A stretch of DNA of 64,000 nt from the NCBI GenBank assembly GCA_002633005.1, contig NMRA01000055.1:641856-705855 (forward strand). The letters run 5' to 3'. Below the pieces are notes generated by a model. That model was not told the origin of the DNA. It saw nothing but the letters and a program-made list of their open reading frames with translations, and ran no database searches. The position numbers were made by a program, and so were the translations under genes. Every line of letters begins with the position of its first letter. Position 1 is the stretch's first letter. Below are positions 1,325 to 57,900 of the stretch, piece by piece. Source of the stretch: Phoronis australis. Its lineage: Eukaryota; Animalia; Phoronida.

Positions 1325-1332
1325 TATAAAAG
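1325..1332 (+). promoter_or_regulatory. Candidate TATA box of the small secreted-peptide gene
   Basis: TATAAAAG, followed within ~90 bp by donor-like sites (CA|GTAAGT ~1379, GAG|GTAATC ~1414), consistent with a short non-coding first exon. Confidence 0.35.
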
Positions 1333-2051
1333 TTGACACAAATAATCTTGTCTTCAGACTATAACTTTGGTTACCACAGTAAGTGCTGCATCAGGTCTAG
1401 AGAAAATTCAGAGGTAATCTTTTCTATTCATCCGTTAGAGTTGTTGTAGTTTTTGTCATGGCGATATTTTGTCTTAATGAACATTCATTTTCAGATAACC
1501 AATTTACACTAAAACGTGTGAATGTTGCTTCTATTTTCATCTTTTCGTGTATGTTTTCGCTGTGTAAATCACAGACTTACATAAACATAAACATGAATAC
1601 ATCTATGTTTTCAATCGTCAAAACATTACAAGAATCATTGTGATTTTTTCGCGAGACAAAATCTAAAAAGCTCAATCTCGAATGACGAAACGTAAAGCTA
1701 AACATGCTGTATGTGCGGCAATTGAATGTACTTTTCAAAGGGGCTACATGCAAATCATGTCATGACAAGATAGTGGCCATTTTGCCCCCCTCCTAATTCG
1801 CCACTGTTTATCTGGATGAAGACAGGATGTTGTCAATTAAATTAAAACTTTGTGAAGACGGAACAGCTTTTAGTGCGTTTGACGGGTTGGAAATACAGTA
1901 TTTTCCACGCTCTAAGGAAAACAGCAAACCTGTTTAAGATTTCCAACAGTACAACACAGCGCAGTGTGTGTTAGTTTTCAGTTACTTGCTCTTGATAAAA
2001 AACGAGCCTTCAACTAATTTTAAAACCATTTCACTCAACTGCAGATCACCC

Positions 2052-3888
2052 ATGTCCAAGGCCGCCCTCTTCATCGTCTTGCTGGTGACGTTCGCTGCCA
2101 TCTTGACAGTAGAGTAAGTGACTGACTAATCACTTCAGTGTCTACGGTAAAGTTTCTTCAAATTAGAACACAATAAAGAGGAAAATTAAAGTGTTGTTTT
2201 ATCAAATTAAAAAGATAAACAGTAAGACAATTTTATTGGTTACTTGAAAATTGTGTATGGTAATCAGCGATGAAATTTTGAATATATTTGGCAATACAGT
2301 GAGCGTTTCAAAAATAAAAACTATCTATTTTGGCCATAATTTGTGTTCGAATGTGAGGAATGTTTACCGTACTACGCGATAATATACGATGAATGATAAA
2401 AGATCGAACTTGAGATGGTGTTTGCATTGACATTTGGTGAACAGTGGCCGGCCGGCTGCTTGAATAAAAGTCTCAATAGAAACTCAGCTACACACCAAAT
2501 TTCCAGCGCATTTGTGAATTTAAAGAAATCGGCTGATTTTCTTTTTCTCTGCTACTTTGTCTCAATGTACTACGTCTAGTTTTAGTTTTGATACAGACCG
2601 AGAGTAAATGTTCCCTTGCCTTTTCTAACATATTGCCATGCATGGCCACGACATTAATTCAGACTTTTTTCATTAAATTTACTTTATATTTTACAATAAA
2701 AATAAGTGACAGAAGATATATAAAATTAGTGATTTTTCGGAGTAAACAAAATCTACGAATGAGTTGGAGATTTAGGGATCATACTTGTCAGTGCCTATTG
2801 GCACTGTTTCATGCAACTGGGCATAGAAGAGCTAATATGGTCCAATTGTTTGGAACTAGCAGTCGTTTTAAAGTTCGGACTTGGCAACGTCACGACGGAA
2901 GTCAAGATTCGCAACAACCTTGGTGCAGGGATTACTTTACTAAACGTATTCTGTGCCGTAAGATTTATTAATTCTATAAGAAAAATACTTCCAAAAATTT
3001 CATTTCTCTCTCTCAAAAGGTCATTTCCGCCGACATTTTTTATAATTGTGTAGAATACGCCAGTTTAAGAGAGCACAGCATCCCTCCGGAACTGGGGGTT
3101 CGACAGCTGTGTTTGAATGGTGAATCAATCTGACGCGGCATTCACTGGTCAACGTGCCCCTCATGTTGACATTCAAATATCTGGAGGTTGAGCACTGAGC
3201 CTTGGGCACACTAAGTGTGACTCTTGCAAGCTCAACCGAAGTAAGCCCTCGCCCTCTCAGCCCTCCCTCCCCCTACCCCTCCCTCCCCCCTCCCTCCCCC
3301 CTNGCCCTTTCTCTGAAGTACACCAACTGCAATGAAGGGGACAAATTGATTTTCTTTTTAGTGTCACGCAGGCCTCTGACTTCAAAGGCGACAGCCCCGG
3401 ACGAGAAGCTGTATACAAGCGCGACTCCGCCGTGCGATCCTCGTTGAAGGGCGATAGCGCCATAGATCAAGAATCCTACGCAGAAGGGGGTTAAAGCTAT
3501 TATTGATCATGTGCATTTTCTAATTTCAAAAATGTGCATTGACTTCTGCGTAATAAAAACGCTTAAAATGAAGGAGAGAGGTTCATTGAACGTTGCTTCG
3601 CTGTTTGACATTTATACTCTACTCGTCATAACGCTACCAAGGAGTGTACTGAGTACAATATATATATAATGTTAGTAAACACCTTAATGCGACATTTTGA
3701 TGTGGGATTGTCATTAATTTCGTATTTTCCTATCAAAATAGACTCTTCGAGCTTGATCTTCTGTGAAACAAGAGAAACTCAAAGTGCATCACTAACGATA
3801 TGTTTCTAGCGGTGCTGACCAGTTTCATTCACGGTACAACGAGACAACGACCACAAGGGGTATACGCAATAGCCTTCAGAATTGTTAA
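2052..3888 (+). CDS. Putative small secreted peptide/protein (spliced; signal-peptide exon 2052-2113, probable next exon from 3810)
   Basis: Acceptor ...caactgcag|2045, ATG at 2052 encoding MSKAALFIVLLVTFAAILTV (classic signal peptide), donor GA|GTAAGT at 2114. A phase-compatible acceptor with branch point (actaac...tgtttctag|3810) continues D-GADQFHSRYNETTTTRGIRNSLQNC* (stop 3888). The first exon is well supported; the 3' structure is uncertain. Confidence 0.45.
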
Positions 3889-6405
3889 AAAAGTGTTGAT
3901 ACGGCATCCTTTAAAATTCCCCTCGAATTAAAAAGTTTAAAAGTGACCAATTTTCATAATTTTTGTCACAAAGAAATATTTTACAAACGTACAGAGAACT
4001 AAGCGTATAAAGTAAGTAGGTAAGGATTGACACAAAGTGACATTTGAAAGTAATCCGTCGGCCAAAACTCTTAAGTAAAGAGAGCATCACTATTCACCAC
4101 AAGTACATTTATTAGAAAAAATGGCAAAGTTATGATAGAACTCCTGTTTATTGAGGTACAACCCTACGAGCAATAGCTTAATGAGAATTTTTTTTCACGC
4201 AATAATCATAATTTAGCAGTAGGAAGAGATGTGGGACTATTACGGTTAAGAAACTATTTAACGCAATTTTTTAAACTTGACATGGATTGGGCTACTTTAA
4301 GTTCCAGTTGTAAAGTATTCCATGAAACCGAACCGGCAATAATTGGAGTTTTCCTAAATTATTGCGGGGAAATATATTCTCAGTAGTAGTTCTGAGAGAA
4401 GATGTATCATGTTTCGAATACACTCCATCAGCTAAGTCACTAATACAAAGTAGAAAAAACAACAGCCCAATACAATGCCTTGTAGTACACCACCATGTTT
4501 GGCGTACCCAATTGGCGATTCGTAAAAAAACAACCGCATCCACACGACCTCTGTAGGTTCTATATAAGAGATCCGACTGAAACAAACTATACACTGTTCC
4601 ACTCAGTATTCCATACATACGAAATTTAATAACAGTTCCTGCGATTATATTACCCGCAACAGCGCAGTGTCTTTGATGCGAAAAAGCAGAATGTGTGGTG
4701 CGCAAACTTGAACTCAATTTTCCGGCAGTGGCTGCACATGCACGGTTCCGGTCGCCGGATCAACCGACTAATGCAATTGATTGGTCTGTAATCCGCAATC
4801 AATGAGATGTCTTACCAGAATGACCGGACGAAATGGTGAAGACAATCAGTCGTTGGTTTACGCCATTGCCTTGCTTTACTACAAGCAGCGTTCCCTTGTG
4901 ATTTCAGAACTGATTCCAGAGACATGGTATGAATTTTTACAAGAATGATCACTAATCTGTTGTCCGTCAGTGATGCAATCGAACCCCGCCCAACAAATTC
5001 TGTAGCCCCTAGAGTCAGTAGACAGGCCCTGAAAAGATATCTCGGCAGAGCATAGACAGGGGCTTTAACACTGCCATTGGTTAATGAAGAACAATCTGGG
5101 CTTGGTAATTAAGCAAAGGTCACCCCAATGCCAGTTTGGTGAAACTCAGAATCCCAGCTAATTTGTGTGCCAATGACACACGCAATTTTCCGGGTAGCCT
5201 TAAGTTTGCGTGAAAAATATTGGGATATTTTCACAAAAGAATGTCATCATATGTGTCCAGTGGAAAGTTCTGTCCCGAGTGAGTCGGAGGATGAGCATTG
5301 CCTTTCTTTGCACTTAAACTGAAACAGGCTCGTTTCCAGCGGAAACTCCTAGCCGAGACGCCGCGAAATCATTGTGCTTTTTCTACGACTGTTTGTGTTC
5401 CAGTCAGTCAGAAACCCAAGCTTCCGCAAAAATAGTGCCAAGTACTGTCGACATAATTATGTTTCATAGGCTGTTCCTTGTGGTCACCATCCACTGGGCT
5501 CGTTGATTTCCGCAATAAGAACCACACGTGTCAGTTCACAGGCCGGATTGACAAGACTTCTAACAAATATCTTTACCGGTAATTGAAAATCTTTGATTTC
5601 ATCTAGGTTGCTTCCTGACACTGGGCTGTTAAAAGGATATCAAAATCCGGTTTAGGTCCATTAACAATACCAAAAAGGACTTTCCCACCCAGTTCTCAGA
5701 AACAAAATAATGCTCTCTAACCCTCGACAACCCTCAAAAGCTTGGAGGAAAATTTGTAAACTCGTTTCAAAATTTGCTAAATGGACAAGCGTGACCTACT
5801 CTTCTAGCGAATTACACGGCAACTGTTGGAAAAGACGACCCACCAAGGACTATCAAATTTCTAAGGTAGGGAGCATTGGTTTTTAGTCGACTCCTGTCTT
5901 TGATTCTTCAACATTGACGCCAATGATGCATTATCAGATGACAGAACGAGGATTAGTTGAAACCATCAGAACAAGGTTTGGTATCCTTTTCACTATTTTG
6001 TTTGTTATTTGAGCAAAATGGCCTTTGACATATGACTGAGATTTTTAAATACTTAATAAGACTTGGAAATTCCTCGAGTTGCGTGAATCGCTTTCAAATC
6101 TCAGTTCAGTGCTTTCTTTACTGGTGTTACGGATGCAGTATTAACTGTTGAATACAACTGGTACTGAGGTAAGCCATGTGCGAGCTGCGGAGTTTATGTC
6201 TTTGATCACTTGATGAGAAATGTAAAATAATATTAATATATCCGCCGACTTAACTCAACTATTGATGGTGGGTTGTTCAGTTACACCGATACTCAAAAAT
6301 AACCAAACCCGAATTAGTGTCCAGTTCACTTCTACAATGAAAATTTTGGCTTATTGTTATCAGTTCAAGACTCTTTCTTTGAATTTATTTTCTCAACAGG
6401 AAGAT

Positions 6406-6945
6406 ATGGATAGAAAGGTTCTAGTTGAAAATATTTTGACGTGTGCAATTTGCAAGAAAACCTTTGAGGCACCGGTTGCGTTGCCGTGTACGCATACTTT
6501 TTGCAAAGACTGCATTTCTGACTACGTGAGGTCGCTGAGACCCTGCACTACTTTCCCGTGTCCCACCTGCAATCGGGTACATACGGCGCCAAACAATAGT
6601 GATGGATGGGAGCGCAACATTGTTATGGAGCACTTGCTACGTCAGTACCTGCGAAAGAAGAATAAGCAACCCCACGGCAGCAATCCGGACATGCGCAGCT
6701 CTCTACCAATTCAAATTTTTGTGAAGACACTCTCTGGGAAAACCATTAGGATCCCTGTGCGGCTTTCCGACAGTGTCTACGCCCTGAAGGAAAAAATTGA
6801 AGATCGAGAAGGCGTGCCGTGTCATGAACAGCGTCTCATTCATCAAGGGAAACAACTCGAAGACGGTAGAATACTTTCCGAGTATGGAATAGAGAAGAAT
6901 GCTAATATCAACCTAGTTCTTCGCTTGCTTGGAAGCAAAATATAA
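6406..6945 (+). CDS. RING-HC (C3HC4, TRIM-like) finger + C-terminal ubiquitin-like domain protein, 179 aa; putative E3 ligase
   Basis: Acceptor tttctcaacag|6400 and ATG at 6406; upstream donor GAG|GTAAGC at 6169. RING motif CAIC-x11-CTH-x2-CKDC-x15-CPTC, then [13 protein letters not shown]...[21 protein letters not shown]...[10 protein letters not shown] (6709-6942), about 44/76 identical to ubiquitin by manual alignment. Confidence 0.9.
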
Positions 6946-8780
6946 GTGCGTGCTTTCAGCTTACCATGTGAAGATACCTACGAATATTTTCCTACTCGTT
7001 TAAATTTTAGAACTTTTCTTTTAATGTACTAATTCAAAGACCCATCCGTAAGTCAGTCTGTAGGATGACTGATAAAGGGCTTCGTGACGACGGGTGTTGA
7101 GCAAAAATAGAGATCCACTTATCCCAAATTTCACAAGCAACCTTTTTCAAATGGTATCTACCGTCTTGTATAATGAGTATGCCTGTTCAATTCGATACAT
7201 TTCTTCGTTTTTTCAGAGCAATATCTAAAAACATGAACGAACAGGTTTGCCGACAGAAGTTTCGCAGTTTTACCGCTTTCAAGGGTACTTTTGCGTGTAA
7301 GTTATATACCGTATAAGGGCATATTTAGGTCCATGCGACTATATCCGAAATCATGCGTTTTTAAAAAAAATTATTTACTGAAATGTCGTATCACATGTAG
7401 GCGCATATGCCTAAGTTTCGCTTATAGGCGCAGATGTGCTTGGAACGACCACTGACAAAAAGAAGAAAAATTTTCCAGGTGATGTATCATTCCACAAATA
7501 AATAGGTTTGCGTGATAGAAATATTTTTCTGTTGTAAAATTTAACTGAAATAAACGTTTTTACATGAAGAAAGTCAAAATAATGATAAAAAGAGCCGAAA
7601 AAAGGAGAAACTGGAAATCAAATAAGAAATAAAAAGAGGGAAATTCCAAGTCGTGATAACTTGCTCTGGATGTAGGGACATGCATTGCCATGGAGGAAAG
7701 AGAATAATTCAACCCGTGCGAAGCATTTTAGGCGACTTGGTTTGATCACGTTCCCTAATTAGGCTCACACGTGACGATTTATGTAACTAGCGAGAACAGA
7801 TTTCAGCTAGCTGTTGCAAGTTTGATTTTGATGTTTCATATTCGTAAATGATGAAGTTGCAGCGGTTTTTGTAGTGTAGTAGGGGTAATGGAAGGGGTAT
7901 AATGATAGCGATTATACAATTTTTTACGATTATTCAAAAAAAAAAAATATATCGTATCGCAAAAATGTAAGTAAAATAGTTTCTGTTTTTAATTTGATTC
8001 TACTTGCATAGCTGACACGCCTAAGTAACCGGAAAATTCTTCGATGGTGAAATTCGCTTAGACTCGAGACTCGACGTCATGATGTGAAATTCCACGTCCG
8101 CATTTTGTCCTAAAACGTTGGCATGTTTTCAGAGTAGCCAGACTGTACGGGTGATCTCACCAATCCTTACAAATAGAGGTCGTTTTTCGCAAGTTTACTA
8201 TCATATGTCACAAATCGAAAATAATACAGAAACTTCCACTTCGTTATTTAATACTCACATAAAACCTTTATGCAAAAATGAATCTTCTTTAATTTGAAGA
8301 AATACTACACTTTGTCCGCCTTAAAATTACTAACGGACCGCAAAAAGGCTTCAAAGACTTTCAAAATTGACAACGAGCTGGTGTCGCAGTGGTAATCTAA
8401 TGGGCTGCAAACAGGAAGATTTCAAGACCGAATCTCAATGAGATCTCTATCATTTCGCAAAAATAAACGAAGTTTAAAAAGTCCAGTCGTTACCATGTCA
8501 GAGGTCAATATTGAGAATTGGTGACTCCGAAACATTGAACGCGGGCGAGTTTATAACTTCATAATTTGTCCAAGTCAGTCAATAGTTACTTACAAAACCG
8601 GTAACGTTCATTCACAACCCGTGCTCATTTCAGCCGGTATATGGCAACAGACACACTTAATTGAGACGGTTGATACCACAGCTCACGAGTATGAATCTGA
8701 CGTTAACAAAAACTGTGCAAGATATTTCATACAGTTAATTAACAGCAAAGGATAGTCAGTAATGGATCTGAAACTAATTT

Positions 8781-9387
8781 GTGAAGACTCCAGTGAAGAC
8801 TGTTCAGTGAAGACTATTCAGTGAAGACTAAGGCAGTGAAGACTATTCAGTCAAGGCTATTCAGTGAGGACAATTCAGTGAGGACTATTCAGTGAATACT
8901 TTTCAGTGAAGACTATTCAATGTAAACTGTTCAGTGAGGACTATTCAGTGAATACTTTTCAGTGAAGACTATTCAATGTAAACTATTCAGTGAGGACTAT
9001 TCAGTGAAGACTATTCAGTGAAGACTATTCGATGAACACTATTCCGTGAAGACTATTCATTGAGGACTATTCAGTAAGGACCATTCAGTGAGGACCATTC
9101 AGTGAGGACCATTCAGTGAGGACCATTCAGTGAGGACCATTCAGTGAGGACCATTCAGTGAGGACTATTCAGTGAAGACTATTCAGTGAAGACTTTTAAG
9201 TGAAGACTATTCAGTGAGGACAATTCAGTGAGGACCATTCAGTGAGGACCATTCAGTGAGGACCATTCAGTAAGGACTATTCAGTGAAGACTATTCAGTG
9301 AAGACTTTTAAGTGAAGACTATTCAGTGAGGACCATTCAGTGAGGACTATTATTCAGTGAGGACTATTATTCAGTGAGGACTATTCA
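8781..9387. repeat. 14-bp minisatellite (TTCAGTGA[A/G]GAC[T/C]A)n, ~43 copies
   Basis: Directly visible tandem array with variant units and higher-order duplicated blocks; no unique spacers. Confidence 0.95.
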
Positions 9388-10109: not shown

Positions 10110-10455
10110 ACATTTGTAAATTTTTGCTTTATTTTAAATTTCGATTTATTTCATTTCTCATATATTTTTTATTGTCCGTATCTTTACAACTATTTTGTTT
10201 GGTGAAAAAGACTTGGCTTACGTTTTCATTTCACTGTGTACCCCCGCTAAATAAAGATTACTCTATTCTATTCTTTTCTCTCCCCATTTATAAATTTTTG
10301 TTGTATTTTAAATTTAAATTTATTTATTTACTACAATCATTTCTTTTCTTGACTATAACTTTAAAACTATGTTGGTTGGTGGAAAAGCCCCGACTTACGT
10401 TTTCATTTCACTGTGTACCCCCACTAAATAAAGATTGCTCTATTCCATTCTCTTC
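10110..10455 (+). repeat. Diverged tandem duplication, ~177-bp period
   Basis: CTTACGTTTTCATTTCACTGTGTACCCC(C)xCTAAATAAAGATT occurs twice (CACTGTG at 10232 and 10409). The 135-aa ORF over it merely repeats this unit. Confidence 0.8.
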
Positions 10456-15400: not shown

Positions 15401-18400
15401 TCATAACCCTCTTTATGAACGTATGGCAAAATTACGTTTGCAATAAGCTAATGGCCAAGATTGGGCAACTATGAAACATGCCTAGTGATGTCCAGGTCAC
15501 AGCTTTAAATCATACATGATGGACGGCCTATGGCAGAACGCAACAATGAAGTGGTTTGTTATACGGGCGGCTCTAAACTGGAAAATGGCCATACAGGTGC
15601 TGGAGTCTATTTTCCAAGCCTCCCTGTTGCAGATGCAGAAAACTGGATATCGCTAGGCAATCTTGCCACGGTGTTTCACGCTGAGACCACTGCAATTAAT
15701 AGAGCTGCTCAACTGGCACAACAATATAACACTGAGCTTGGCAATTGGCCAATTACCATCTTTTCAGATAGCCAGGCAGCAATAAAAGCCCTAAAGAAAC
15801 CAAGGGTTAACTCTTGTTGTGTTTATGCTTGTATTAATGAGCTTAACAAGCTTGCAATTGAAAGAATCGTCAATATACACTGGGAAAGGGCCCATGTGGG
15901 AATTGATGGCAATGTAAATGCAGACAGACTAGCAAAGATAGGAGCCAGCGTTCTGCATTTTGTGCCTGAGCCTGCTATCCCGGTATATTACGGATGCTGC
16001 AAGATGAGTATACGCAACTGGGTACATACCCAGTCAGCAGCCCAGTGGGCATCACTTAACTCCTGCAGAGAGACCAAGGAGAATTTCCCCAACGTGATCA
16101 AACCAAAAGGTTCAAAAAACCTTCTGAGTCTAGATAGACTGGGCATAAGACATGTACGTCATTCAAATTTTGACGGGCCACTGTAACCTAGCCCGACACA
16201 GACACATTACTGGGCATATGGGGAGCTCTGTGTGTCCTGAGTGTGGTACTGACGTAGAATCTCCTAAACACCTGGTAGAGTCTTGCCAAGCTTTTTATAG
16301 GCTAAGGAGCAACCTACTGGATGGCACTGTTACATGCCTACAACATATAGTGCATGGCAACAAATGCAAACATCTGTCCGCTTTCTTAAAAGAGACAGGC
16401 AGACTTGAAAACTCCCTTCACGAAGAACCATAATGGGCTCTCATGCTTTTAGCTCAGGTGTTTGATGCAATGGGCCCAACCATGAGGCCTGCACACATTT
16501 GATGCACCGCAAATGACATCAGGCCACCTGCACTGTTTTTTTATGAACATATGGTAAAATTACACCAATTTCAAAAAAACTGATTGCCAGAACTGCCCAC
16601 AATCATTTGAAAATTTTCAAAAAAATTGTCTGATGTTGCTAAACTACAGAGCCAGAAAATAATGAGGCATTATTTTAGTGTAACTTATCACGTCTTGAAA
16701 AATTGAATCATATGCCACATTGCCTTACTTTGACGAGAGCTTTTAAGAAATCATGAAAGGTGTCAACTTACCACAGCATTCTCAGGGTCAAGATCAACTG
16801 CATCTTTGAAGTTCTGCCTCGCTTCCTCAAAATTATCAAGTCCCATTGACAGGAAACCCCTACAATTTGTCTTATCAACTATACGACGAAACCAACAAAA
16901 ACAAACATAACAATTTCGAAAACCTTTTTAAGTCTGGTCAGCACGCCACCTGTGGTCACATGAATATAAGTCTGAAAAGATTTCTTCCCCAACCAGGACT
17001 CAAACCCGGGATCTTCTGCTAACCCTACTGATGTTCTAGTCCACGGAGCCATCGGCACTACTGGACGAATACAGATATCCAATCAGAAGGTACAGTATTT
17101 GAGTCCCGGTTGGGGTAGAATTCTTTTCAGACTTACATAAGGTCACATGTGGCTAACAGGTGGCGTGCTGACCAGATTTAAAAATTTTTGAGATATACAT
17201 TTCCACGTCAGTTTAAGAATTTCGTATTTATAAACAAAAAAATTAATAATTATATACAGTAAAACAAGCATAGGTTGAATTTGACACGACCGAGAGATTT
17301 TATCCAGATAATGTGAAATTTGAACCTGAAAGGCCAAGTGTACTGTGGAAACTTCGTTCGAGTTTAGTAAAATAAAAGTTGCCCACGTCCGATTCATGCG
17401 AGTTAAACTTTAGTTCACTTCCTGAGTGTAAAATGAACACAATGAATGACGAAATATGTAAACTATTCGACTTTTTATGACCAAGTCTAAAAATTATTAT
17501 TCTACCCAATAACTGATGTTTCCTGGTTGATGAAACTTTTTAAACGTTATGTAGGACCTTAGAGAAATGGCTAAATTTGGCTACCTTCGGATCATCATTT
17601 CTCAGAATTGGCCGATCGAATTAATGTGTAGCTTCCACATACTATACTAAAGACATTGTTTTCAAAAACACTCTGTAATATGGATTGTTTTTAAAATGTT
17701 CCAATTTTATATGAGGGACTATAAAAATTGGGCTTTTGAAAAAAATCAAAAGTTGTATAAAACGAAAACGAAATAATACTTTAGAAAATTTTAACAAGGT
17801 TATCGAGATTTTATAAATCGACATTTATCAAACGAAACTTGGTCGTGTTTTTCATTCTTCGTCTGGCTATAAATGGACGTTTTTTTCTCACTAAATTTTG
17901 CCAAAAAGACATGGTCATGCGACCCAAGTGGTTGCAGTTTGGCATGAAGTAAAAAATCAAATTCTTTGTGATCTCTCTGCTTTCAGAAAACGCATACTGT
18001 TACTGAGTTCTGTTTAGAAATTTGGCTTAACGCACAGTTGTCGAGTGACAAGGGCTCGCATGCCCTTAAAATAAAGTAGCGTTTTTAAGACATGCTCACT
18101 TGTTAATTAAGCTATTGCACTTGTCTTCGGTTCTAGCGCTGTCCACTAATTTGTCAGAAGATGCAAAACATGTTGTCGATGTTGAAACATCACCTATCTG
18201 AAAGGAAAAAACAGCCAATTAGTGGTGGAACACATGACGTCAATGAAAAATTAGGAACTATATATAAGTATAATTACCGTGGCTAATTCTTCAAATTTTT
18301 TCTCACAAAAGTGAAAAACAAATATACTTTTGTAATAAACAAAGAATGATTGCACTGCTTACAAAAGAGTTTAAAGCCATCTGTTGGCCACATCACGGGG

Positions 18401-24400: not shown

Positions 24401-27400
24401 TAAGCGTAAAAAACTAAAATTGCCACTAGGGGGCACACCGGTAGTCAGATCCGTCCGAAAGTTCGCACATGCCGTCCCATTCATGAATGGAACATATGTG
24501 TCAAATTTCATGAACGTATGTCAAAGGGTTTTGGAGATAGAGCAGCGGACGCCGGACGCCGCCCGGACGGACGGCCGGACGGCCGGACAGAGATGACGGC
24601 ATAATGCGTCCACATATAAATATGTGGGCCCATAAAAATCAATGTTGAACTCAGCCTTTTCACAGTCTTATTTTTATAACTTCAAAGGTGTATCTTTTAT
24701 ACACCAAAATGTTTACTTTTCCAGAGAGCTTAGACAGCATACACCAAAGAAAATTCATTCATTCAGAACTGCTTGTATGTTGCTGACTAAGACATCTGCT
24801 CTACTTTTCAAAATGATACAAAATGAAGTCAAACCTGCCCCTGGCCATATGCACTATTAATTTCTCAGTTAACAAAAATTCTAGAATAGCTGTCTTACAG
24901 CTATGAAGGTTGAAGATTACCCCAAGCAAAATGTGTATCATAAAAGATAAAATAATCGAGTAAAAAATAAGCCATCCTGCTGTATACATCTATTGGGGAT
25001 ATTGTCATTCACTAAGTTTCTGGTCAAAGCACAAAAAGTGTCAGCAGTAAAACCACCTAAACAGGAAATGGAAAGGAGGTGACTGTCTACTGAGCGTGCT
25101 CATAGGCTTTCCTGATTGGTGCACATGTGTAACAAAGCGCATTGCTCGAATGAGCTAGCATGGCTATATTAACAGCAGGTATTGCATTGCTCGACTCAGC
25201 ACACGCAACTACATGGTCAGTACTACAGGGTGTGATGTGGCTAAATACTTCACAGGGAAACTGACAAACAGACAAAGAGAAGTGCGTGAGTAATCAGAGT
25301 TGGAGAACAACTGAGACAATTAGACACAGTTGAATGGTGCAATAACCGCATTTGTCTATCATATAAAGGTGGAAGGCTGCCTTGTGTCATGTGCTCGTTA
25401 ATTAGTTGTTGGCTACATTAGATCACAGAAGTAACACCTCAACATACAAGGAAGACTCGGCCAGCAAGGCAACTGATCGTACGCTACAAGACGTCGTAGT
25501 ATAGCAATAAGTGCTTAAGTGTTAACAACATAAAAAGCACCGACTTTAAAAAGAAAAAACAGAGCCAGGAAAATCTGCACCATCAGCTGTTTGGAAGAAC
25601 TTTGGGTAGAAAATAAAAACAATTAGCATACCCCGTAATTTCAATTGTTTCTACAAGAAACAAACTTCTTATAAAGGAGTTGGATATCCGTAACGACATT
25701 GGCCATTGGGAATGATGTCCTTCAACCTCTCATCTGCAGACCATGGAGATTACAGCGAAACCTTCAACACATCAAACTGCACATTGGCGACCATTACTCC
25801 CCTGTTGTGCAACATTCATTATCAAGTGTTCACGATAGTCATGGCAATTTTCTGTCTCGTCGGCATCGGCAGCAACGCCGTGGTCATGACCATATATGGC
25901 CAGAAGCTTAAACGCAACAGCAACTCCGCCGTCAATCTTTTCATTGTGGCACTGGCGGTAATTGACTTGACGGTTTCGTCATTTATCATACCCTTCACAA
26001 CTTGTTACGAGCTCTTCTTGGTTGAAAACATTTATGTGTGTCAAGTAATGCAATTCCTGACGCATGCTTCGTCATTCGGGTCCATTCTCACCTTTGGCGG
26101 AATTGCCATAGAGCGATATTTAGCATCATGCCAACCGCACTTCTATCGCAACTTCTCTAAGACGACATCAAAAGTCATTCTCACTGCCATTGTGATTTTG
26201 TCGTTTCTTTTCTCCATCCCTTCGCCGTTTAAGCAAAGCATGCAGATATTCAACGGCAGATACATCTGTTTCGTGAACGACAGTTTGCCACTATCGTACC
26301 CATATGGCCTGTTCATGATTGTTGTGTTTTTTATGGTCATGTTTTCAAGTCTGGTGCTATACGCGTTTGTCTACGCAACTATCCTCAAGATCATGTTCAA
26401 CAAGAGGAAAAAAGTCGTACCGAAGCCAGCAAAGATAGGTTCAAAGGTAGGCAAAATAATTTTATTTAAAAGGGTCATGATTTCAAACACACACCAGTTA
26501 ATTCAGAAATACTAAAGGCTGTTGCAGACAATGAAGCCTTGGATGCGCGTAGTCTACATGTGGCTTATATGGCATCTGCCAAAGCCTACATTAACACTGC
26601 TTGATTTACTACGGTAATCTCTAAATTATGACCACTCCAACATTAAGGCCACCAAAAATTATTCACCATTTCCAATTACTTTCCTCTCAATAAAGTAAAT
26701 ACGAATGGTAACCAACTCGTGGCGAATTTTTCTCTCTCATGAGCAGTCATGCTAACACGTAATGCTGAAGCAGCATTTGTTCCTTCGCTTAAAATGGGTT
26801 TGTTGGCGATCTCAGTGGCGAGGAAAATTTACGACATCCGACAATGTCATTGTGCACTTTATCCCAATGCGGTCATATTTAGCTGACTTGTCGCATGAAC
26901 ATGTTAGGTAAGCTAAATGCGAGTTAATTTGGCAAAGAAGCAAATTAACTAAATGAGTAATCGAAAATTCCTAACAGTGGGTTATTTTGCTACGAACAAT
27001 GTACCTTTATTAAAAATGAAATCTCGACTTAAAAACAGGTGATAACATATTTTTATAATCTCTGATATTTTTTCTTTCAGAATATGTACAGTTTTATTAG
27101 TTGACACAGCCTATTTTTTGATACATGAGTTAGAATGAAAGTGACTAAATAAGATTTGTGATAACCTTAAGTGAAACGGCCTAACATTTCGGACAGTATC
27201 ATCTTCCAATTGTGTGGTGTAGAAAATTTTACTACGCTACTGAAGGTCATCGCCTCAAATGTCTGGCCATTTTATTTCAATATACCGGGAACAACATGTC
27301 TCTTTGCTACCTCTCATCTTGGTTTTTATTTTATCTTATCTTGGAAATGGCAACTATATCTTTTCCACATTTAAACTTCCATTTTGTCTCGTTTTGCTGG

Positions 27401-30400
27401 CTAAAAATGAAAATCAAATTAAATAGGCCTTATAATCACTCATAAAATTGGTCTCATAAATAACCCTTACCGTCACAGGATTCAATTCCCATTATCAACT
27501 CAAGTCACACTCATTACGTGCAGGTGCCAATTTTGAAATCACAATTTCTTAAGTCATTTCGATGTTCTTGTTGGTAACATCAACAGAATCCTATCACAGT
27601 AAAGGATATTATGATACCAGTTTATTAGTCGAGTAAACGTCAAAATTTGATTCTCTTTGTTTTTAGTCAGTTAAACAGGGCCAAATGCAACTGCATGAAA
27701 TCTAAATGCTCTGATTTTCATATACTTATCTGTCAATTCATCCATCCATGTCTCCACTGGCAGTCATGACTCATAAACTTGATGACAGCCTCAGTCCCAC
27801 ATGTCAATTTAAAAACTTGAACATCCTGTAGACACATTTACTGAACGTTGCAGTGATAAAGTAAGTATTTGAAACTCAAGAGATAGAAAATCCCAAATGA
27901 GACCGTCTCATTATGCAGACGGTGTCTCAGTTTTCAGTTCTTCACTTTAAAACACTTTTAAAATCGTTATTTATTCCTTCTCTGGAATTGTTCATCTTTC
28001 ACTGACAAATCAAGTTGACGTTTATGAATTAAAAACTTTGAGTTTGTCTCACTAATTTGAAACAAATGTGAATACTTGATAATTAAGTATAATTTAAGTA
28101 TAATTTAAGAATCAAGATGTCTTAAAATTAGACATTCCTACAGCCTCCGTGAGAAATGATTTCCTAAATTATTAAAACTGACCATCTTGTGTTTCTCTGT
28201 GAGAAGCTGAATGAACCACACTATAATGGGAATATTGACACTTAAAATCCCAGTTTTGGAAATAATTGATTACGATGAGAAATAAACAACACACTGATAT
28301 GACATTGTGAGTCACTTTCAAATTACCACAGTCCTCTGGGTACATGCCTTCCTTTATTTGCCTAAAAGCAACAATAAACCTATATTCAGCCATGGAAAAA
28401 AATTAATTATTAGATCACTAGGTGCCACTATAAAATTGATCTCAACTTGTTTCTAACTCAGATGAAAAGTAATTTTATCTTACTCAGATGAACATTAATT
28501 TTTGGTGTTGCTGAGGACAAAGCTCAGTGACACCTAGTGACAACTTGTAGAGACTATTTTCAACCAATCAACGGACTAAAAGCTAATTCCAAACCCAGAA
28601 ACCACACCTATTTTGACCACGGAACATTTTGTGATCAATATCATCAAATGTAAGCCTTACAAATAAAAATTAATTTTTTGTCACGCAAGGTCTGAGACTT
28701 GACAGATCATAAAATCATCAAAAAAATACCTGCAAATGCAAAATTTTTACACGTCCTCATAGTTTGTAACATCAAAGGGAATGATTGTTTTTTGTTGGTC
28801 AGAATTCTTGAATTTGGGATGGTCAACATTGCCTTTTTCTAAAATTTTGTAGAAGTTCTGGTGTTGAGAAAAATGAATAAATTTTCAATGCCCAAACAGG
28901 AGATTTTTTTACCACACGCAGAAACTTTTAAACATTTTCAATTTTAAACCTGCTTACTCGAGACGTAACTTAGGACACTGATATGGGCATCATTAGGGCC
29001 TTATTTCGTCTTCAAAAAGATGAATAGTTTTACTCAATGGCAATATGTCCAAAATGTCAGGAAAGTGTGTCTAGGATTTTAAAGGCCTTTCAGCCACAGG
29101 ACAAGGCTGTCAAAAATCAACCCTTCCATTATTTAAAGAGTGTTGAAGTCTTTTTTATTTTAATGTTGACAGTGGAATTCTTGACATGCTTCTGTAGTTA
29201 ATGGAATAAAGAAACAGAATTTACGCCCAAAAATCTTAATACTGGACATCACAACTGCAATTTCCGTGAAAAATTACGTTGTTTCCGAGCTAGTCATACG
29301 ATTACAAATATCCGGGCATTAATTTTACGTTAAAAAATATTCTATAATCAACAAGGATACTAAAAATAAATAGGGCTATGAGTTTACTATGAATACTTGA
29401 AAAAACTGGTAAAGAAATTCAATCCTTAGTAACGAAGGTATTCTAGTACGCCAGGCAGAGATGTTTTAACAACTGAATCAACCGTAAAATGAGACTAATT
29501 ACACTTCACATTTTTAATCAATCTGTAATTTCATCACAAATAATATATTTCAGCTTCCTGAGCAGACGACAGTTGGCAACAAAAGAATAACAGAAGGAGG
29601 TTCAACGAAGCACGCGTGGAGACAGAATAAACAGCGTGTTGCTCGGAACGAATATGAGGAGGCCTACTCCAGCATGGCAGAGGTAGAAACAAGGGAAGTC
29701 AAGGCTAGTGGAGACCCATTGGTTTTCAACAAGGGTGGCAAATCGAGCATAAAGAAACAGCCCGAGACGAGCAACACGGATTGGAATGGAATTCTCCAGG
29801 AGGCCAGCTCAAGTGTTTTCAATAAGCAGTTAAAGAACGCAAACACGGCTTGGCACCAATCACCCACGCAAGGCACAAGTCAGCAAATGAAACCCGGTCG
29901 TAGGAATGCTATTTATGATCTACACATGCACTCGGCAAATTTGCAGAAGGATTCCATGACCAACAAAGTGCAGGGAGACACAGCAGCTCGTTCTCTGAGT
30001 CACTTGCGCACAGCAACCATGCTTTTCGGCGTCACCGCTGTTTACGGACTATCCTGGACCCCTTACGGTCTGGAGACACTCGGCGTGATACCATTCTTTC
30101 CCGTCACTGGCTACTGGTTTTATTTCAACAACTGCTCAAATGCCTTCGTTTACAGTCTTGCAAAGAAGTCATTCCGGCGTGACGTCAAGAAACTTTGGGA
30201 AGATGGAATACAGTCCATTTTGTGCTATCGCTCTTAACAAGATTTTGCAAAGATTGAAAAAAGGTGCAATGCAGTCGTTGTTTTTCAATACTGACTAATT
30301 TATAAAACATTTGAATACCATTTTTAATCAAAATAAAAGATGAATGTACTTATTTTGAAAAATGTTGATTATGCGTATGGTTTTTGTTATAGCGTTTTAA

Positions 30401-39400: not shown

Positions 39401-42400
39401 AAAAAATGGCGTGAATTTTTGCATAAGGATTCTGTAAGATATACTCTTTCAAATGAACTGTAAAAATTTTTTTCTCAGACTTACCTTTTTCGAGATATTT
39501 GACTTTAAATTTCTTTAAAAAAGGCAAAATTTCATTTTTTTCGAAAAAATTAACGGAATTGTGTGATACTATAATTTAGATAGAGTTTTGAACGGGCTTT
39601 CAGAAGATATTTTCCATTTTCCGCTACCACATCTACTTTTTGAGTTATTTGAGATTTTCTGATAACGCTGTTCCTTTGTTGAGCGCTCTTGCTACATTGA
39701 TGTTGGTTTAGCTTCTATTGAACTAGACTGTAGCCTATTTCTTATTGATTTATGACATCTAAATTCGTCACATGAATGCTACGATGTTGCTCATCATCTC
39801 CACCATCACCATCATCACATTTATCATCTTCGTCATCATCTCCGACGTCGTCTTTTCTTCAGTTAATTTCGCCAAGTGTCGCTCAAGACTGTAGCCTATC
39901 TCTTAGTGATTTCTGACATCTACGTTCGTCATATGAATGATATCATAACTTGCATTGTCCACCATCGTCACCATCGTCATCATACCTGTCATCTTCGTCA
40001 TCATCTCTGTCGTCGTCTTTTCTGGTCATCTCTAACGTAGTCTTTTTGGTTAATTTCGCCAAGTTTCGCTCCTCAGAGCGCTTTCATTTGTTTGTCGACT
40101 TTTTGCAAAGGGGTGATGCTTGTGATTGGTCAATTTAAATGTTATTAAATGAATTCTGATGCATGCACAAAGTATGGCTATGGAAGTAAACTAATGACTA
40201 GCTGATGAAACAGTGTATGCCGTGATATCCATAGGTAGTTAACATGTACGTTGTACGTCATTACAATATCTTACAACCAACTCAAAGACCTACACAGGCG
40301 ATGTTGCACAGAGGATCCCTTTACGCAAAGGCACAGCATGAATACCAGTGTGGTTACCGAAAAATGACACAAAAAAATAAAAACATGTAATTAACAAAGA
40401 AATATTTAAATGTTTTCAGCACATTTTTGTCGGAACACTACCTCAAGTGGTGCTTTACAAACACAATCCATGCACATGAAACTATACATTTTGATAAAAA
40501 CAACCATACGGTTCTGCAAATTTGATTTCGGCTAAGTGTATTAATCTGATCAATTGGCGCAGGAATCAGGTGGTGTTCTTGAAAAATAATTGCTCATTCA
40601 TTACAAACATAATTGATTGTTAGCAAGTAGACTTGGAACACCCGATACTTTTAATTCAGAAAATTATCACGGCAATTAAAAATTGCTGAAGGCATTTGAC
40701 TGTTTTTGCTAACATATAAAGCATACACAAATAAAAATATATCTGCAAATGTCAAAAATCAGATAATGTAGCACGAATTCAAAAATGTAATAGTTTTTTC
40801 CAAATAACGGAAACAGGTAGACTCACATAAAAATCAAAGAGGCAGGCCAGAATGGAGACTCCCTCTTCCCAAACTGGTTTCACTGGAACAGCCCATAAGA
40901 ATTTTTACAAGTTGTTGAAGTGGAAATAAGGTGTAAAAACGCATTCAGCATAAAACAATTGAGAACATCTGACAAACTACTCTCTAATGTTGTGAGAGAA
41001 TAAAAGCACCTTTCACTTGACCCGATTTTATGACCTGATTTCACATTTTGGTAAAAAAGACAGGAACTAATTTCTCTTGTTCAGAGACATTTCGCATTTT
41101 TGCATTTCATTGTATGTACCATTTGAATATCCCACACTACACCAGAGGTATTTTGACAACATGACGGTCGCAAAGAGTTTATCAAAAAATGTGAAACCTC
41201 TGTTTCCTTAATCTTTGTCTACCGAAAAGGAATGAACTATAGATGGCGCTGAACATTGTCCACCACGTACTCTATCACCATCTTGTGACGAAGCACATTC
41301 CATTATGTCGCCATTACATGGGAAACTAGACATTATCACCTACAGTTATATCACATTAGCACTTAAGCACTGCTACCCACACATCTCTTTAATTGTTTAC
41401 GTCTCTAGAGGATGCCACAACCATATTCAGATTAGTCATGGCACGGTTACCTAGATGCTAAAACGCTGCGAACGATTCGCATTGTGCCCCAAAGGAGGCG
41501 GTATGACCTCATGATAGAGCCATTGTTTACTATTCTAAGTCAAAGCTTTAATCTCCACAAGCCACTTTTTTCTCAGTTCAATTTCACACGGCGCATGCAT
41601 ACTATGCTAAATTCTCACCAAACTAGGAATAAATAATTTATTTATTTATTATTAATGTAATATTTACAATGAGGGTAGCCCCATCAGTTCACACTGCTTT
41701 CCATGGGGGCCCTCAATTGACAAAATTGACCTATTTTCAGTTTTCAAAGGCTTCCAGCATTGTTGTGAATGTCCACAATTTCTCAAGACATTGTTCGACA
41801 GTAGCTATAGAATAGGGCTTTAAAATAATCTATTTGATGCTACTTATTAAGTTATTTGATATGAAAAACAATAGATTTCACATGTCCATGCCAAATTGTA
41901 CTCTAAATTGGTGATATTGTACAAATATTAAATTTTAACTGGTTCTGAACTGGTCTGTGCCCAGCAGTTGGCACCAGGTGGCACTGGGTAAAAAGAAAGA
42001 AGAGGAAGGATTCCGAAACATTTAATCAGACACCAGGTGGCGTTGGAGACAAAAATAATGATCCCGACTCAGTGGCTAGAGCATTTGCTTGGTTAGCAGT
42101 TGCAGGGTTCGAGTTCCGGTCGGGGGCAGAAATCTTTTCAGTCTTATGTTCAGTACGTCACGTGATGTGGCCCACCAGTGGCATACAGACCAGACTTAAA
42201 ATATTTGTGAACAATAAAAATAAACAATAAATGATAATCTTACCATGGGTTCATCCATGCAGACGACTGGCATAGTCAGCTGTTCTTTGTCCACGAAGAA
42301 AGTTCCTGGAGTACTTGTAGCCATGGAAACGAGTACCTGCCTCGTTGTTTCACTCGGTATCCATGCGTCGTGCATTCGATCCGTGTCGGACATGTTAAGA

Positions 42401-54900: not shown

Positions 54901-57900
54901 AAAATCCACTTAATACTAACAAGGATAAAATTATGTTGTCAGTACTTCTAAAGACTACTTTAAATGGTAGCATTTTAAAGATTTGCATGCTTCTAACTAT
55001 GCTAATGTATATAGCAGAAACTAAGCGACAATGCTATTTTAACATGTGGTAATCTATGCTAAACAAAGTGGAGTTGTATTCGCTGACAATTTGTAAATGT
55101 GAAAACAAAAATTCAGGCAAGTAGGTGACCTTTGCACTAATGACGTACGTCGTGGGGTCATGTGGCCCGCATCATGCAGTGTTATTCACTAGCCTAACCA
55201 TAGTTACTGGACACGGTTCAATGATTTGCTGCATAGTGTACGAAAGCCTTCCTTCAACAGTTTTTTATTGTTTTCCACCGCCATTTTAGATATTGTATAA
55301 TTTAGTGTGTCAATCAATCTCCTTAGCTTCAGACTCCAAGGCAGAAATGCAGGCTGCCCTCTGGAGGTTGCCAGCAGAGTATAGTACATCTGACCTTGAT
55401 GATGGCTCCTCGAGCATTCCATCCTTAGAACTGCTCACAAGTCTAGGCTCACCTGATTACGGAGATTGTAAATGGTTGGTATTTACTTTAAATCACTTTT
55501 TTCAATATGAAAGAATGTTGGAAATTGTTATGAATGGTTTTGCTTATTGATTCCCAACTTGGTTGTTTTGATGGTTGCTTGCTGACACGGACAAACGCAC
55601 ACTTTTTGAAAACGTTAATGCATTTACCGGTACCAAAAATTGGAATAAAGTTATTAGTACACAGTCAACGATTTTCGTATCTAGTTAAGGTTTTTGGCCT
55701 TCTCTCTGAGGCCTTTCTCAAACTAATGATGACCTCAGAGGCTGGGACGTGCGTATGATATATCCAGTCAAATGAACTTGTGTCATCAACTATTTACCAA
55801 AAAAGAAATTCAAAGTCAGAAGCTTCTAAATCCGCTTTGAAGGAATTTATAATTTTATAAGTCACTAACTTTTTTTCCAGGTTGCTATGTTCAAAGACTT
55901 GACAAATTTCTCAGATAAGTCTCTAATGATTTATCATGAATGTTTGCCAATTTCCTTTATAGCAATATTTGCCAATTGAAAACTATCAGAACTAGTTGTG
56001 ATAACTTTGAGGTCATTTTTATGCACCAAAAAATTATGGTCGCATATTGTCAGCATATTAGCCGTTCATTTTTCGTTGTTACCTTCTCTTAATAATCTCA
56101 AGAGTTAAATGATAAATCATGAAATTAGGCACAAACTTATACGGCAAACATTGACGGGCACCAGTCAATTTTCAGAAGGATTTTACTACCATGACACCCA
56201 TGTTGGTCATTTTAATTTTCAATGAGATATTCCTCGTAATTTTTCTTTGAATATGAATTGCTGCATTTTGCCACAGCTTGGCACAAAGGTACATTCCTGT
56301 TGTCAGCATTTGTTAATGTTTATGTTTGCAGTGTTCTTTGGCAGCCTGTTGATGGAGGTAATCATGTTGTGTTACTGGCCGATAACAACATACTGATGTA
56401 TGATATAAACGCGGGGGCCGAAAATGCCAAGGTGAGCAAATTAAGTGAGAAATAGACTGTATGCCCAATCTATACAGTAGATAATAATAACAACAGATAT
56501 GAAGCCCTTATCGATTCTCATGAATAACTATTATAATTATAAGACGGCGACGAGACCTGGAGAATCACACCATTATCTTTGCCACCGATTCCATGGCAGT
56601 GTTGATGAAAGTTCAATCTGGAAACCTCCCAGCCAACTGGGGTGTCTTCCGATCACGCCACCCTCATCATGTGGTGATTTGGTCTTTCGTACCTGCCCAT
56701 GCCGGTGTCTTGATTAATGAGCGTGCAGATTACCTCGCTGGCTCATGCACCACCAACCAACCCCTCTACTTATATTCGGTTGACGTTAAGCTGCTGGCTC
56801 GCAAACGCTACCTCGAGCAGACTGCATCCCAGCTGGCTGAATTCAATGATGGCAGCCGCCTGCTCGAAGCCGGTATTATTTATGGCCATGCTGCAAAGAG
56901 TCACAAGAAGGGCCGTGCCCGAGTGCTGTCTAATCAAATGCTTACAGGCAACGTCAGCCCTGGAGTTCTGCGCCTTCTGCTGTCACGGGGATGGTCTGGG
57001 GAGGGGATTAATGCACCAGCATATCCCCAATGATCCTGTCCGTGACAGGTATTACAGACGGCGACGAGTGCCAATCCCTGTGTTTTTTCCTGAAGGTCAC
57101 ATATTTTCCAGTCCCACGGGGCTTTTGGGCACACGATTTTGTCAATCAAATTTGTATTTGGCTCATGTTTTAACGACAGAAGACTCTAGATTAAATTTTC
57201 TTTTCGTTCAGCTCACGGCTTCGACTGCGCTAGAGGTCAAAGGTCAACCAAAGTTCAGCACAGGTCGGTGGAATCCTCATCACAGCTGTACACATATAGC
57301 CACTGCCAACGACACGACAATAAGAGGCTGGGACACACGCAATATGGAGTTAGTACTTTTATTAGTCCAATTTTAATATCTAAACGAATTTGCGATATTT
57401 CATTGTTGTAGTGACCATTACTAGATGATGTTTACTCTCTTGTGACTAACTGAGGTGTTTTGTATTTCCTAATGGATGAAAACACCCAGATACATAACTA
57501 TTAAGATTGTGAGTTCAAGGCTCAGTCTTCATAAGGCAATTATTCAGAAACCCTATTTGGATTTCTTCTGTATTCCTCACAGAAATGGGTCTATCTCAGT
57601 CTACTTTAATGTGGTAAATGTTGCTTTTATTACTAATTGTAGAACACGTACAGTACAAGTCTAAAGTAATGGTCATAACGACTAAATCTGTTCTCAGCAA
57701 AAATGGAGGGTAACAACTAATGTGGGGACAAAACTCAAATTACAGCGTGGCTTAGCCACATTACTAACTTCCCTGTTAATTCCCCTCCATTTTAAGTCAT
57801 GAGGGAAGATTACTCTGACAATGAATTCGGCTTCCGCCCAGCCATCATGACAGGGAATTGTGGGTGATTTTTTCTGAATACTTTTGGCTGGTACTGCGCC

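What the first reader, a model, noticed from the sequence alone, without database searches (positions are those of the whole stretch)
6406..6945. Compact RING E3 fused to a non-conjugatable ubiquitin mimic
Seen: a 179-aa protein consisting only of a TRIM-type C3HC4 RING (no B-box or coiled coil) and a C-terminal domain ~58% identical to ubiquitin, all in one exon. The Ub domain keeps the L8/I44/V70 patch and lysines equivalent to K6, K11, K27, K29, K48 and K63. It ends LRLLGSKI instead of LRLRGG, and the S65 position is Ala. Established: the di-Gly is needed for E1 activation and conjugation, and known UBL-bearing RING-type ligases such as Parkin and UHRF1 carry the UBL N-terminally. Inference: a RING-then-Ub architecture that could act as a built-in chain primer (self-ubiquitinating scaffold), a proteasome/UBD adaptor or a DUB decoy. 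It may be a recent exon-shuffled or retro-derived immunity gene. This is the best candidate for an undescribed protein here.
Basis: partly seen in the sequence, partly recalled or inferred. Interest (0 to 1): 0.75.

Follow-up and report, generated by a model that had tools for sequence, protein, structure and literature searches.

The report
TRIM-type RING ligase with built-in ubiquitin
An invertebrate animal genome holds an intact small reading frame that joins a ubiquitin-ligase (RING) domain to a ubiquitin copy lacking the tail needed to attach it to other proteins; it would likely seed ubiquitin chains on itself, but no transcript was seen and similar layouts occur elsewhere.

Summary
Observation confirmed. 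6406-6945 (+) is an intact 179-aa ORF: C3HC4 RING (aa 13-55) and a ubiquitin-like domain (UBL, aa 102-177; 44/76 identical to ubiquitin; ends LRLLGSKI). A splice acceptor lies 6 nt before the ATG, so an upstream exon is likely; the nearest good donor adds at most 10 codons. The RING resembles TRIM2/3/56 RINGs with both flanking helices, but has Asn at the linchpin (10 of 193 related RINGs), as in TRIM8, which prefers UBE2N and K63 chains. The UBL's substitutions are more conservative than neutral drift (7 of 5000 simulations). Best reading (0.35): a likely self-priming K63-chain seed whose primer cannot be cut off. Against: no full read on the ORF in three RNA libraries (no positive control), no orthologue, and Q62/E64 changed next to K63. 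RING-then-UBL is not unprecedented: PRC1 RING-RAWUL proteins, an unnamed shrimp protein, two ESM Atlas clusters (order unknown) and giant-virus entries. This scan reported the same layout before in a Pandoravirus (e1-624303, unchecked). Five paper searches found no description of an animal RING fused to near-canonical ubiquitin. New variant of a known kind; interest 0.42.

The parts
6169..6399 (+). Candidate intron before the coding exon: donor GAG|GTAAGC at 6169, pyrimidine tract and CAG acceptor ending at 6399
   Evidence: Sequence. Of GT donors scoring 5 or more of 6 between 1300 and 6340, three were found (4012, 4020, 6169); each has an in-frame stop within 8 codons upstream and no Met. 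No spliced read seen.
6406..6945 (+). RING-UBL coding sequence, 179 aa (P0001)
   Evidence: GC 46%, GC3 49%, like other coding exons of the window (43-48% GC) and above its flanks (36-38%)
6412..6435 (+). Predicted helix before the RING (aa 3-10), TRIM-type dimer helix position
   Evidence: AlphaFold2 model with alignment A1; alignment A2
6442..6570 (+). C3HC4 RING, all 8 zinc ligands (C13 C16 C28 H30 C33 C36 C52 C55), I15 and P53
   Evidence: best PDB sequence matches TRIM2, TRIM3, TRIM56, TRIM25 RINGs
6571..6573 (+). Asn56 at the linchpin position
   Evidence: Arg 134, Lys 21, Asn 10 of 193 RING copies in 144 of 206 retrieved proteins
6607..6663 (+). Predicted helices after the RING (aa 68-86), matching the TRIM post-RING 'xNxx' helix
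   Evidence: (pLDDT about 55-65 here)
6664..6708 (+). Predicted flexible linker (aa 87-101)
   Evidence: pLDDT under 50 for aa 87-97
6709..6942 (+). Ubiquitin-like domain (aa 102-177) plus Lys-Ile; K48 and K63 equivalents at aa 149 and 164; no Gly-Gly
   Evidence: model matches ubiquitin chains at about 1 A rmsd

Best explanation
The ORF encodes a TRIM2/3-like RING domain fused to a diverged ubiquitin copy without the C-terminal Gly-Gly, and it likely acts as a pre-primed ligase that would use UBE2N/UBE2V (Ubc13/Uev) to build K63-linked chains on its own ubiquitin domain. Shown: the two domains, intact zinc ligands, Asn linchpin, kept K63 and L8/I44/V70, lost Gly-Gly, conservative substitutions in the UBL. 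Inferred: (1) the Asn linchpin restricts it to UBE2N, as shown for TRIM8; (2) the UBL is the acceptor and replaces the priming mono-ubiquitination that TRIM21 needs, probably in trans between RING dimers; (3) because the UBL is joined through its N-terminus, deubiquitinases, which cut after Gly76, can trim the chain but cannot remove the primer; (4) loss of Gly-Gly stops E1 from charging the fusion and attaching it to other proteins; (5) the anchored chains serve as a signalling or recruitment platform, expressed in tissues or conditions not sampled. Origin (inferred): a lineage-specific fusion of a TRIM RING exon with a ubiquitin unit in place of the B-box.
For: Domains and residues. RING closest to TRIM RINGs: 40-52% to six hits tested, against 30-35% to the shrimp RINGs; TRIM2/3/56/25 head the PDB list; two named relatives are mollusc TRIM2/3-like. 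Asn linchpin is rare among relatives, 10 of 193; TRIM8's Asn56 linchpin makes it UBE2N/K63-selective (PMC13769585, abstract and passages). Ub-RING TRIM21 fusions are elongated with K63 chains by Ube2N/Ube2V2, first in trans (PMC7900206 sections 7-8). C-terminal ubiquitin fusions with Gly-Gly get conjugated to cellular proteins, with harmful effects (PMC9703124 passage), which explains why the tail would be lost. Constraint on the UBL: 16 of 17 core positions still hydrophobic; mean BLOSUM of changes 0.22 against -0.75 under neutrality, reached by 7 of 5000. Both domains are predicted at pLDDT above 90.
Against: No full read over the ORF in about 35 million reads from three libraries; the only signal is about 35 bases at the start of the UBL in X1 and X2, likely a cross-match from ubiquitin mRNA (no positive-control exon was laid). 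Residues around K63 changed: Q62E, E64N, S65A; Ube2N contacts ubiquitin S57 and Q62, and only S57 is kept. With a list fixed regardless of outcome, named functional surface residues are not significantly more conserved than other non-core ones (20/32 against 13/28, p 0.16; lysines 6/7, p 0.12), so K63 retention alone says little. No substrate-binding or clustering domain (no B-box, coiled coil, SPRY or NHL). The TRIM21 precedent has ubiquitin at the N-terminus, not the C-terminus. No orthologue, so no dN/dS. TRAF6 and RNF20/Bre1 also have Asn there, and Bre1/RNF20 were solved with Rad6/UBE2A, so Asn does not fix the E2.
Confidence: 0.35

Rival explanations
1. The UBL is a built-in degron or shuttle: it is extended through K29/K48 (UFD-like) or bound by proteasome and other ubiquitin-binding receptors, making a short-lived ligase that drags RING-bound partners, such as TRIM relatives it heterodimerises with, to degradation.
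For: K29, K48, L8, I44, V70 kept. Non-cleavable ubiquitin fusions are degraded through K29 and K48 (PMC9703124 passages; shown there for N-terminal fusions). Changes cluster next to K63 rather than K48. In PRC1 the C-terminal UBL is a separate domain behind the RING (PMC2447854 abstract).
Against: H68N and I36V alter the edges of the binding patches. The UFD data concern N-terminal fusions. An Asn linchpin works poorly with UBE2D enzymes in TRIM8.
Confidence: 0.25
2. A once-functional or barely expressed lineage-specific gene that is now silent or close to it; the conserved look is inherited from earlier selection.
For: No full read on the ORF or any splice joint to it in three RNA runs. No orthologue. 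Repeats lie 430 nt upstream and 500 nt downstream. F45H in the UBL core.
Against: Intact 179-codon frame, 8 of 8 zinc ligands, a strong splice acceptor and coding-like GC. About 19% of each run was read, tissues are unknown, and no control exon was laid.
Confidence: 0.17
3. It is the last exon of a larger protein whose upstream coding exons supply a substrate-binding domain.
For: A strong acceptor at 6399 is open in phase 0 into the ATG. Earlier unchecked notes describe TRIM RING exons spliced to other exons in this genome (e1-10581467, e1-10416361; there the RING is upstream).
Against: The three strong donors within 5 kb give at most 8 open codons without Met. The ATG sits where TRIM relatives start, about 12 residues before the first Cys, and TRIM RINGs are N-terminal. 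tblastn found no other RING or ubiquitin segment in the window. Weaker or more distant donors and other phases were not excluded.
Confidence: 0.1
4. A deubiquitinase decoy or trap: the UBL binds the ubiquitin pocket of a viral or transposon deubiquitinase without being cleaved, and the RING ubiquitinates the bound enzyme.
For: The tail L71-R72-L73-L74-G75-S76 keeps part of the deubiquitinase-binding tail but not the cleavage site. Unchecked notes report many retrotransposons with USP domains in this genome (e1-10594107, e1-10581489, e1-10640573).
Against: No binding data. R74L removes a contact that many deubiquitinases use (recalled). The transposon notes were not checked here.
Confidence: 0.08

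Closest known systems
TRIM2/TRIM3/TRIM56-type RING domains (PDB 8a38, 8amr, 5jw7) and invertebrate TRIM2/3-like proteins
   Same: C3HC4 RING with flanking helices; best sequence matches
   Different: No B-box, coiled coil or NHL/SPRY; Asn instead of the usual Arg linchpin; ubiquitin copy in place of the B-box
TRIM8 RING (PMC13769585; abstract, introduction and passages read)
   Same: TRIM-type RING with Asn directly after the last zinc Cys; the paper shows UBE2N/K63 selectivity
   Different: TRIM8 is a full RBCC protein with no UBL; orthology is not claimed; TRIM8's acidic residues before the RING are not matched one for one
Mono-ubiquitinated TRIM21 RING / engineered Ub-RING (PDB 7bbd; PMC7900206, abstract and sections 7-8 read)
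   Same: A RING carrying a fused ubiquitin that serves as K63 acceptor
   Different: Engineered or enzymatic, N-terminal, wild-type ubiquitin; here genome-encoded, C-terminal and 58% identical
PRC1 RING-RAWUL proteins (RING1A/B, BMI1; PMC2447854, abstract read)
   Same: N-terminal RING plus C-terminal ubiquitin-fold domain
   Different: RAWUL was found only by remote similarity; no RAWUL Pfam hit here; the UBL here is close to ubiquitin itself
Penaeus indicus XP_063602172.1 (P0146, uncharacterised RING-RING-UBL)
   Same: RING then UBL with near-identical spacing; 27% over 169 aa
   Different: Two RINGs of another type (rank 159 and 170 of 185 by tree distance); UBL 29% to ubiquitin and 29% to this one, with Gly-Gly plus a tail; likely an independent fusion
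Giant-virus RING/ubiquitin proteins (Barrevirus A0A3G4ZQ93 'Ring and ubiquitin domain protein'; Pandoravirus S4W2T1, A0A2U7U9H8, A0A4D6EIW4, A0A4D6EGT9)
   Same: Foldseek hits; the Pandoravirus ones align over 174-186 columns at 20-26% identity; an earlier unchecked note describes a Pandoravirus RING-ubiquitin fusion without Gly-Gly
   Different: Sequences not seen here and domain order not verified; the named relatives of this RING are animal TRIM-like proteins, and it has a host splice acceptor
OASL (PMC6019448, abstract read)
   Same: Ubiquitin-like domains used as a mimic of K63 polyubiquitin in innate immunity
   Different: Two tandem UBLs on an OAS-like domain; no RING

Membership tests
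TRIM/RBCC | N-terminal RING | tested here: met
TRIM/RBCC | One or two B-boxes | tested here: not met
   no zf-B_box hit at E<=0.01; only 46 residues lie between RING and UBL
TRIM/RBCC | Coiled coil | tested here: not met
   only short helices at aa 68-86, then a loop; no TRIM_CC hit
RING-HC E3 ligase | C3HC4 zinc ligands in cross-brace spacing | tested here: met
   8 of 8, invariant in A2
RING-HC E3 ligase | E2-contact hydrophobic residues (Ile after the first Cys pair start, Pro in the last CPxC) | tested here: met
   I15 and P53, matching TRIM8 I17 and P53
RING-HC E3 ligase | Arg linchpin | tested here: not met
   Asn56; 30 of 66 human TRIM RINGs also lack Arg, and TRIM8 is active with Asn, so this does not exclude activity
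RING-HC E3 ligase | RING dimerisation through a four-helix bundle | tested here: inconclusive
   flanking helices predicted; the complex job gave no verdict
RING-HC E3 ligase | Ubiquitin transfer activity | not testable with these tools
   needs an in vitro assay
Conjugatable ubiquitin / type I modifier | Beta-grasp fold close to ubiquitin | tested here: met
Conjugatable ubiquitin / type I modifier | C-terminal Gly-Gly after Arg74 | tested here: not met
   L74-G75-S76-K-I
PRC1 RING-RAWUL | RAWUL domain | tested here: not met
   not among the 11 Pfam families hit at E<=0.01
Pandoravirus RING-ubiquitin family (earlier unchecked note) | Ends in Gly-Asp; sequence kinship | tested here: not met
   ends Gly-Ser-Lys-Ile; no look-alike by sequence in the scan's index or in viral contigs; only fold-level hits

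The most novel reading that the evidence does not exclude
A genome-encoded, permanently primed K63-chain seed: an Asn-linchpin RING restricted to UBE2N carries its own acceptor ubiquitin that no deubiquitinase can remove and no E1 can charge, so making the protein alone would switch on anchored K63 signalling, without the priming step that TRIM21 and TRIM5 need. The same design would have arisen independently in this animal, a shrimp and giant viruses.
Probability: 0.22. Interest if true: 0.72.

Novelty: new variant of a known kind. Interest (0 to 1): 0.42.

Why it matters
RING-anchored K63 chains are the activation signal of antiviral TRIMs, and their start depends on a separate priming ubiquitin. 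A natural RING that carries its primer would be a living counterpart of the engineered Ub-RING constructs and would test whether priming can be hard-wired. Repeated independent RING-ubiquitin fusions (this animal, a shrimp, possibly giant viruses) would mark an undescribed convergent design. If the gene is silent or the UBL is only a degron, it is one more lineage-specific TRIM-derived shuffle of modest interest.

Tried and rejected
No whole genome is held, so paralogues, the host's own ubiquitin genes and synteny could not be examined. Run search: no RNA holder was listed; three raw-read runs and one contig set with the same species label were offered and laid. Only 4700-7600 was laid, so exons further upstream and a positive-control exon were not examined. 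Homologue searches: one search gave 21 proteins, all ubiquitin-only by Pfam; (aa 1-100) gave none; (profile A1, biased to the RING) gave 59, none with PF00240; one search listed the best 150 of 4082, of which 88 were RING-only, 60 ubiquitin-only, 1 both (P0146) and 1 neither. The exact sequence is not in the protein collection. Viral contigs: none with P0001; 11 ubiquitin loci, none with an in-frame RING. Metagenome contigs: 0 of 29 loci held both domains. Single-sequence AlphaFold failed (pLDDT 41); the alignment-based model was used, although A1 misplaces the relatives' post-RING helix. RING homodimer prediction: no verdict (score 0.02, alignment not used); not used as evidence. The RING tree had weak support near the query (0.31) and names no donor. 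The '14 of 14 functional residues kept, 0 of 5000' figure is rejected because I chose that list after seeing the alignment; the fair version is not significant. The 226-aa ORF from ATG 6265 is rejected as likely read-through of the intron's pyrimidine tract. Giant-virus origin was considered and not favoured: the named relatives of the RING are animal TRIM-like proteins, there is a splice acceptor, and GC is host-like. NEDD8 origin was considered: R72 and the QIFVK/LEDGR motifs are ubiquitin-type (NEDD8's Ala72 is recalled, not tested). Paper searches for the architecture: searches gave 0 papers; two searches gave listings with no matching title; the Pandoravirus preprint 10.1101/2023.12.02.569716 had no RING-ubiquitin fusion in the 4 passages shown.

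Full report
Observation. Window 6406-6945 (+) is an open frame of 179 codons. Pfam finds a C3HC4 RING at aa 13-55 and ubiquitin at aa 104-174, and nothing else but related models. An alignment-based AlphaFold2 model gives both domains pLDDT above 90, with a low-confidence linker at aa 87-97, and the UBL matches ubiquitin chains at about 1 A rmsd.

Gene structure. A pyrimidine tract and CAG end at 6399, six bases before the ATG, so the coding exon is likely preceded by an intron. Three strong donors lie between 1300 and 6340 (4012, 4020, 6169); in phase with the ORF each has a stop within 8 codons and no Met, so the nearest candidate exon is non-coding. The ATG lies where TRIM relatives begin. 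Weaker or distant donors are not excluded. No second RING or ubiquitin segment is in the window. Coding GC (46%) is like other exons here (43-48%) and above the flanks (36-38%). The window is from an animal: spliced genes, a rhodopsin-family GPCR and RNase H remnants; earlier notes call the genome an invertebrate (unchecked). No whole genome was available.

Is it under constraint? With no orthologue, I compared the UBL with ubiquitin. Sixteen of 17 buried positions (textbook list, recalled) are still hydrophobic; the exception is F45H. The 32 substitutions have a mean BLOSUM62 of 0.22. Random mutation of the UBL DNA to 32 changed residues gave a mean of -0.75; 7 of 5000 runs reached 0.22, 1003 had no stop, and 142 kept both frame and core. 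The fold has therefore been under selection at some time. The surface tells less: named functional residues are 20/32 identical against 13/28 for other non-core residues (p 0.16), and 6 of 7 lysines has p 0.12. An apparently stronger figure used a list chosen after the fact and is discarded.

Expression. Three raw RNA runs with the same species label (about 35 million reads, 18-19% of each run) and one contig set were laid on 4700-7600. Depth was zero across the ORF except for 0.26 and 0.10 in two adjacent bins in X1 and X2. That equals about 35 bases across the bin border at 6736/6737, at the most ubiquitin-like stretch, and is likely a partial match from ubiquitin mRNA (inference). No splice joint touched the ORF. 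Reads did cover repeats at 5670-5970 and 7440-7600, at 90-99% identity. No single-copy control exon was laid and the tissues are unknown, so this shows no detectable expression in these samples, not silence.

Relatives. No full-length relative was found: searches (21 hits, all ubiquitin only; none; 59 hits, all RING without ubiquitin; 150 listed of 4082: 88 RING only, 60 ubiquitin only, 1 both, 1 neither), viral contigs and metagenome contigs (0 of 29 loci with both). The RING's nearest solved relatives are TRIM2, TRIM3, TRIM56 and TRIM25, and the two named RING clusters among those looked up are mollusc TRIM2/3-like proteins. The one protein with both domains, P0146, is an uncharacterised Penaeus indicus RING-RING-UBL. 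It aligns collinearly (27% over 169 aa), but its UBL is 29% identical to ubiquitin and to this UBL, and its RINGs rank 159 and 170 of 185 by tree distance, so it is likely an independent fusion. The ESM Atlas lists two unnamed clusters of 156-158 aa with ubiquitin in 84-88% and a RING family in 29-37% of members (scores 0.92 and 0.89; 162 and 150 shared features, under the 170 typical of one family; order and taxa not given). Foldseek against viral models finds a Barrevirus 'Ring and ubiquitin domain protein' and four Pandoravirus proteins aligned over 174-186 columns; an earlier unchecked note of this scan describes a Pandoravirus RING-ubiquitin fusion without Gly-Gly (e1-624303). I could not see those sequences.

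Mechanism. The residue after the last zinc Cys is Asn56; among 193 RING copies in 144 of 206 retrieved proteins it is Arg in 134, Lys in 21 and Asn in 10. For TRIM8, an Asn at this place contacts ubiquitin but not the E2, so the RING works with UBE2N and makes K63 chains, and N56R restores UBE2D activity (PMC13769585, abstract, introduction and passages). The same paper notes other Asn RINGs with other arrangements or E2s (TRAF6, RNF20/Bre1). The general importance of the linchpin is in PMC12326332 (passages). TRIM21 RING carrying a fused ubiquitin is elongated by Ube2N/Ube2V2 on K63, first in trans by a RING dimer (PMC7900206, abstract and sections 7-8). Put together, the likeliest job of this protein is to be its own primed substrate for K63 chains. 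Two points follow from ubiquitin chemistry: the UBL is attached by its N-terminus, so enzymes that cut after Gly76 cannot release it; and a C-terminal ubiquitin with Gly-Gly would be charged and attached to other proteins, which is harmful in engineered fusions (PMC9703124, passages), so losing the tail is the expected change. Against this reading, Q62, which Ube2N contacts, is Glu, E64 is Asn, there is no domain to bind a target or cluster RINGs, and nothing was assayed. The degron or shuttle reading (K29 and K48 kept) is nearly as good. Silence, a longer gene and a deubiquitinase decoy are the other rivals.

Comparison with known systems. It is not a TRIM (no B-box or coiled coil), not a conjugatable ubiquitin (no Gly-Gly) and not a PRC1 RING-RAWUL protein (no RAWUL hit), though PRC1 proteins show that RING followed by a ubiquitin fold is an established order (PMC2447854, abstract). 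It would work like mono-ubiquitinated TRIM21/TRIM8 RING, or as a ubiquitin mimic like OASL's UBLs (PMC6019448, abstract). Searches found no paper on an animal RING fused to a near-canonical C-terminal ubiquitin; the library is partial and no supplements were read.

Verdict. A real, intact and once-constrained RING-ubiquitin fusion, apparently lineage-specific, of a layout that recurs unnamed elsewhere. New variant of a known kind. The Asn linchpin plus built-in acceptor gives a sharp, cheap test, but the lack of transcripts and orthologues keeps interest at 0.42.

Noticed in passing
window 1325-3494 (+): Likely small secreted-peptide gene: TATA box at 1325, donor at 1414, signal-peptide exon 2052-2113, last exon from 3362; the spliced product is 64 aa with a Lys-Arg site and ends Gly-Gly. 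Possibly a neuropeptide-type precursor; no search was run.
   Followed up: partly
window 5670-5970 and 7440-7600: Dispersed repeats flanking the RING-UBL gene, covered by RNA reads of other copies at 90-99% identity; a few reads join 5668/5672 to 5970 on opposite strands, hinting at inverted ends, though no clear terminal repeat was found locally.
   Followed up: partly
window 8791-9387: Tandem array of a 14-bp unit, about 42 copies, 86% matches.
   Followed up: no
window 10111-10455 and 59980-60205: A 177-bp two-copy tandem duplication and a 72-bp three-copy repeat.
   Followed up: no
window 15530-16186 and 56593-57033 (+): RNase H-like frames, likely remnants of retrotransposons.
   Followed up: no
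window 16913-17196: Nested inverted repeats (41 and 55 nt arms), MITE-like, with a partial copy near 42123-42201.
   Followed up: no
window 25712-26515 and 29674-30237 (+): Rhodopsin-family GPCR exon (PF00001); the second ORF looks like its last helices but had no Pfam hit.
   Followed up: no
P0146 (XP_063602172.1): Uncharacterised shrimp RING-RING-UBL protein whose UBL keeps Gly-Gly followed by a 9-residue tail, so it could be processed and conjugated, unlike this one.
   Followed up: partly
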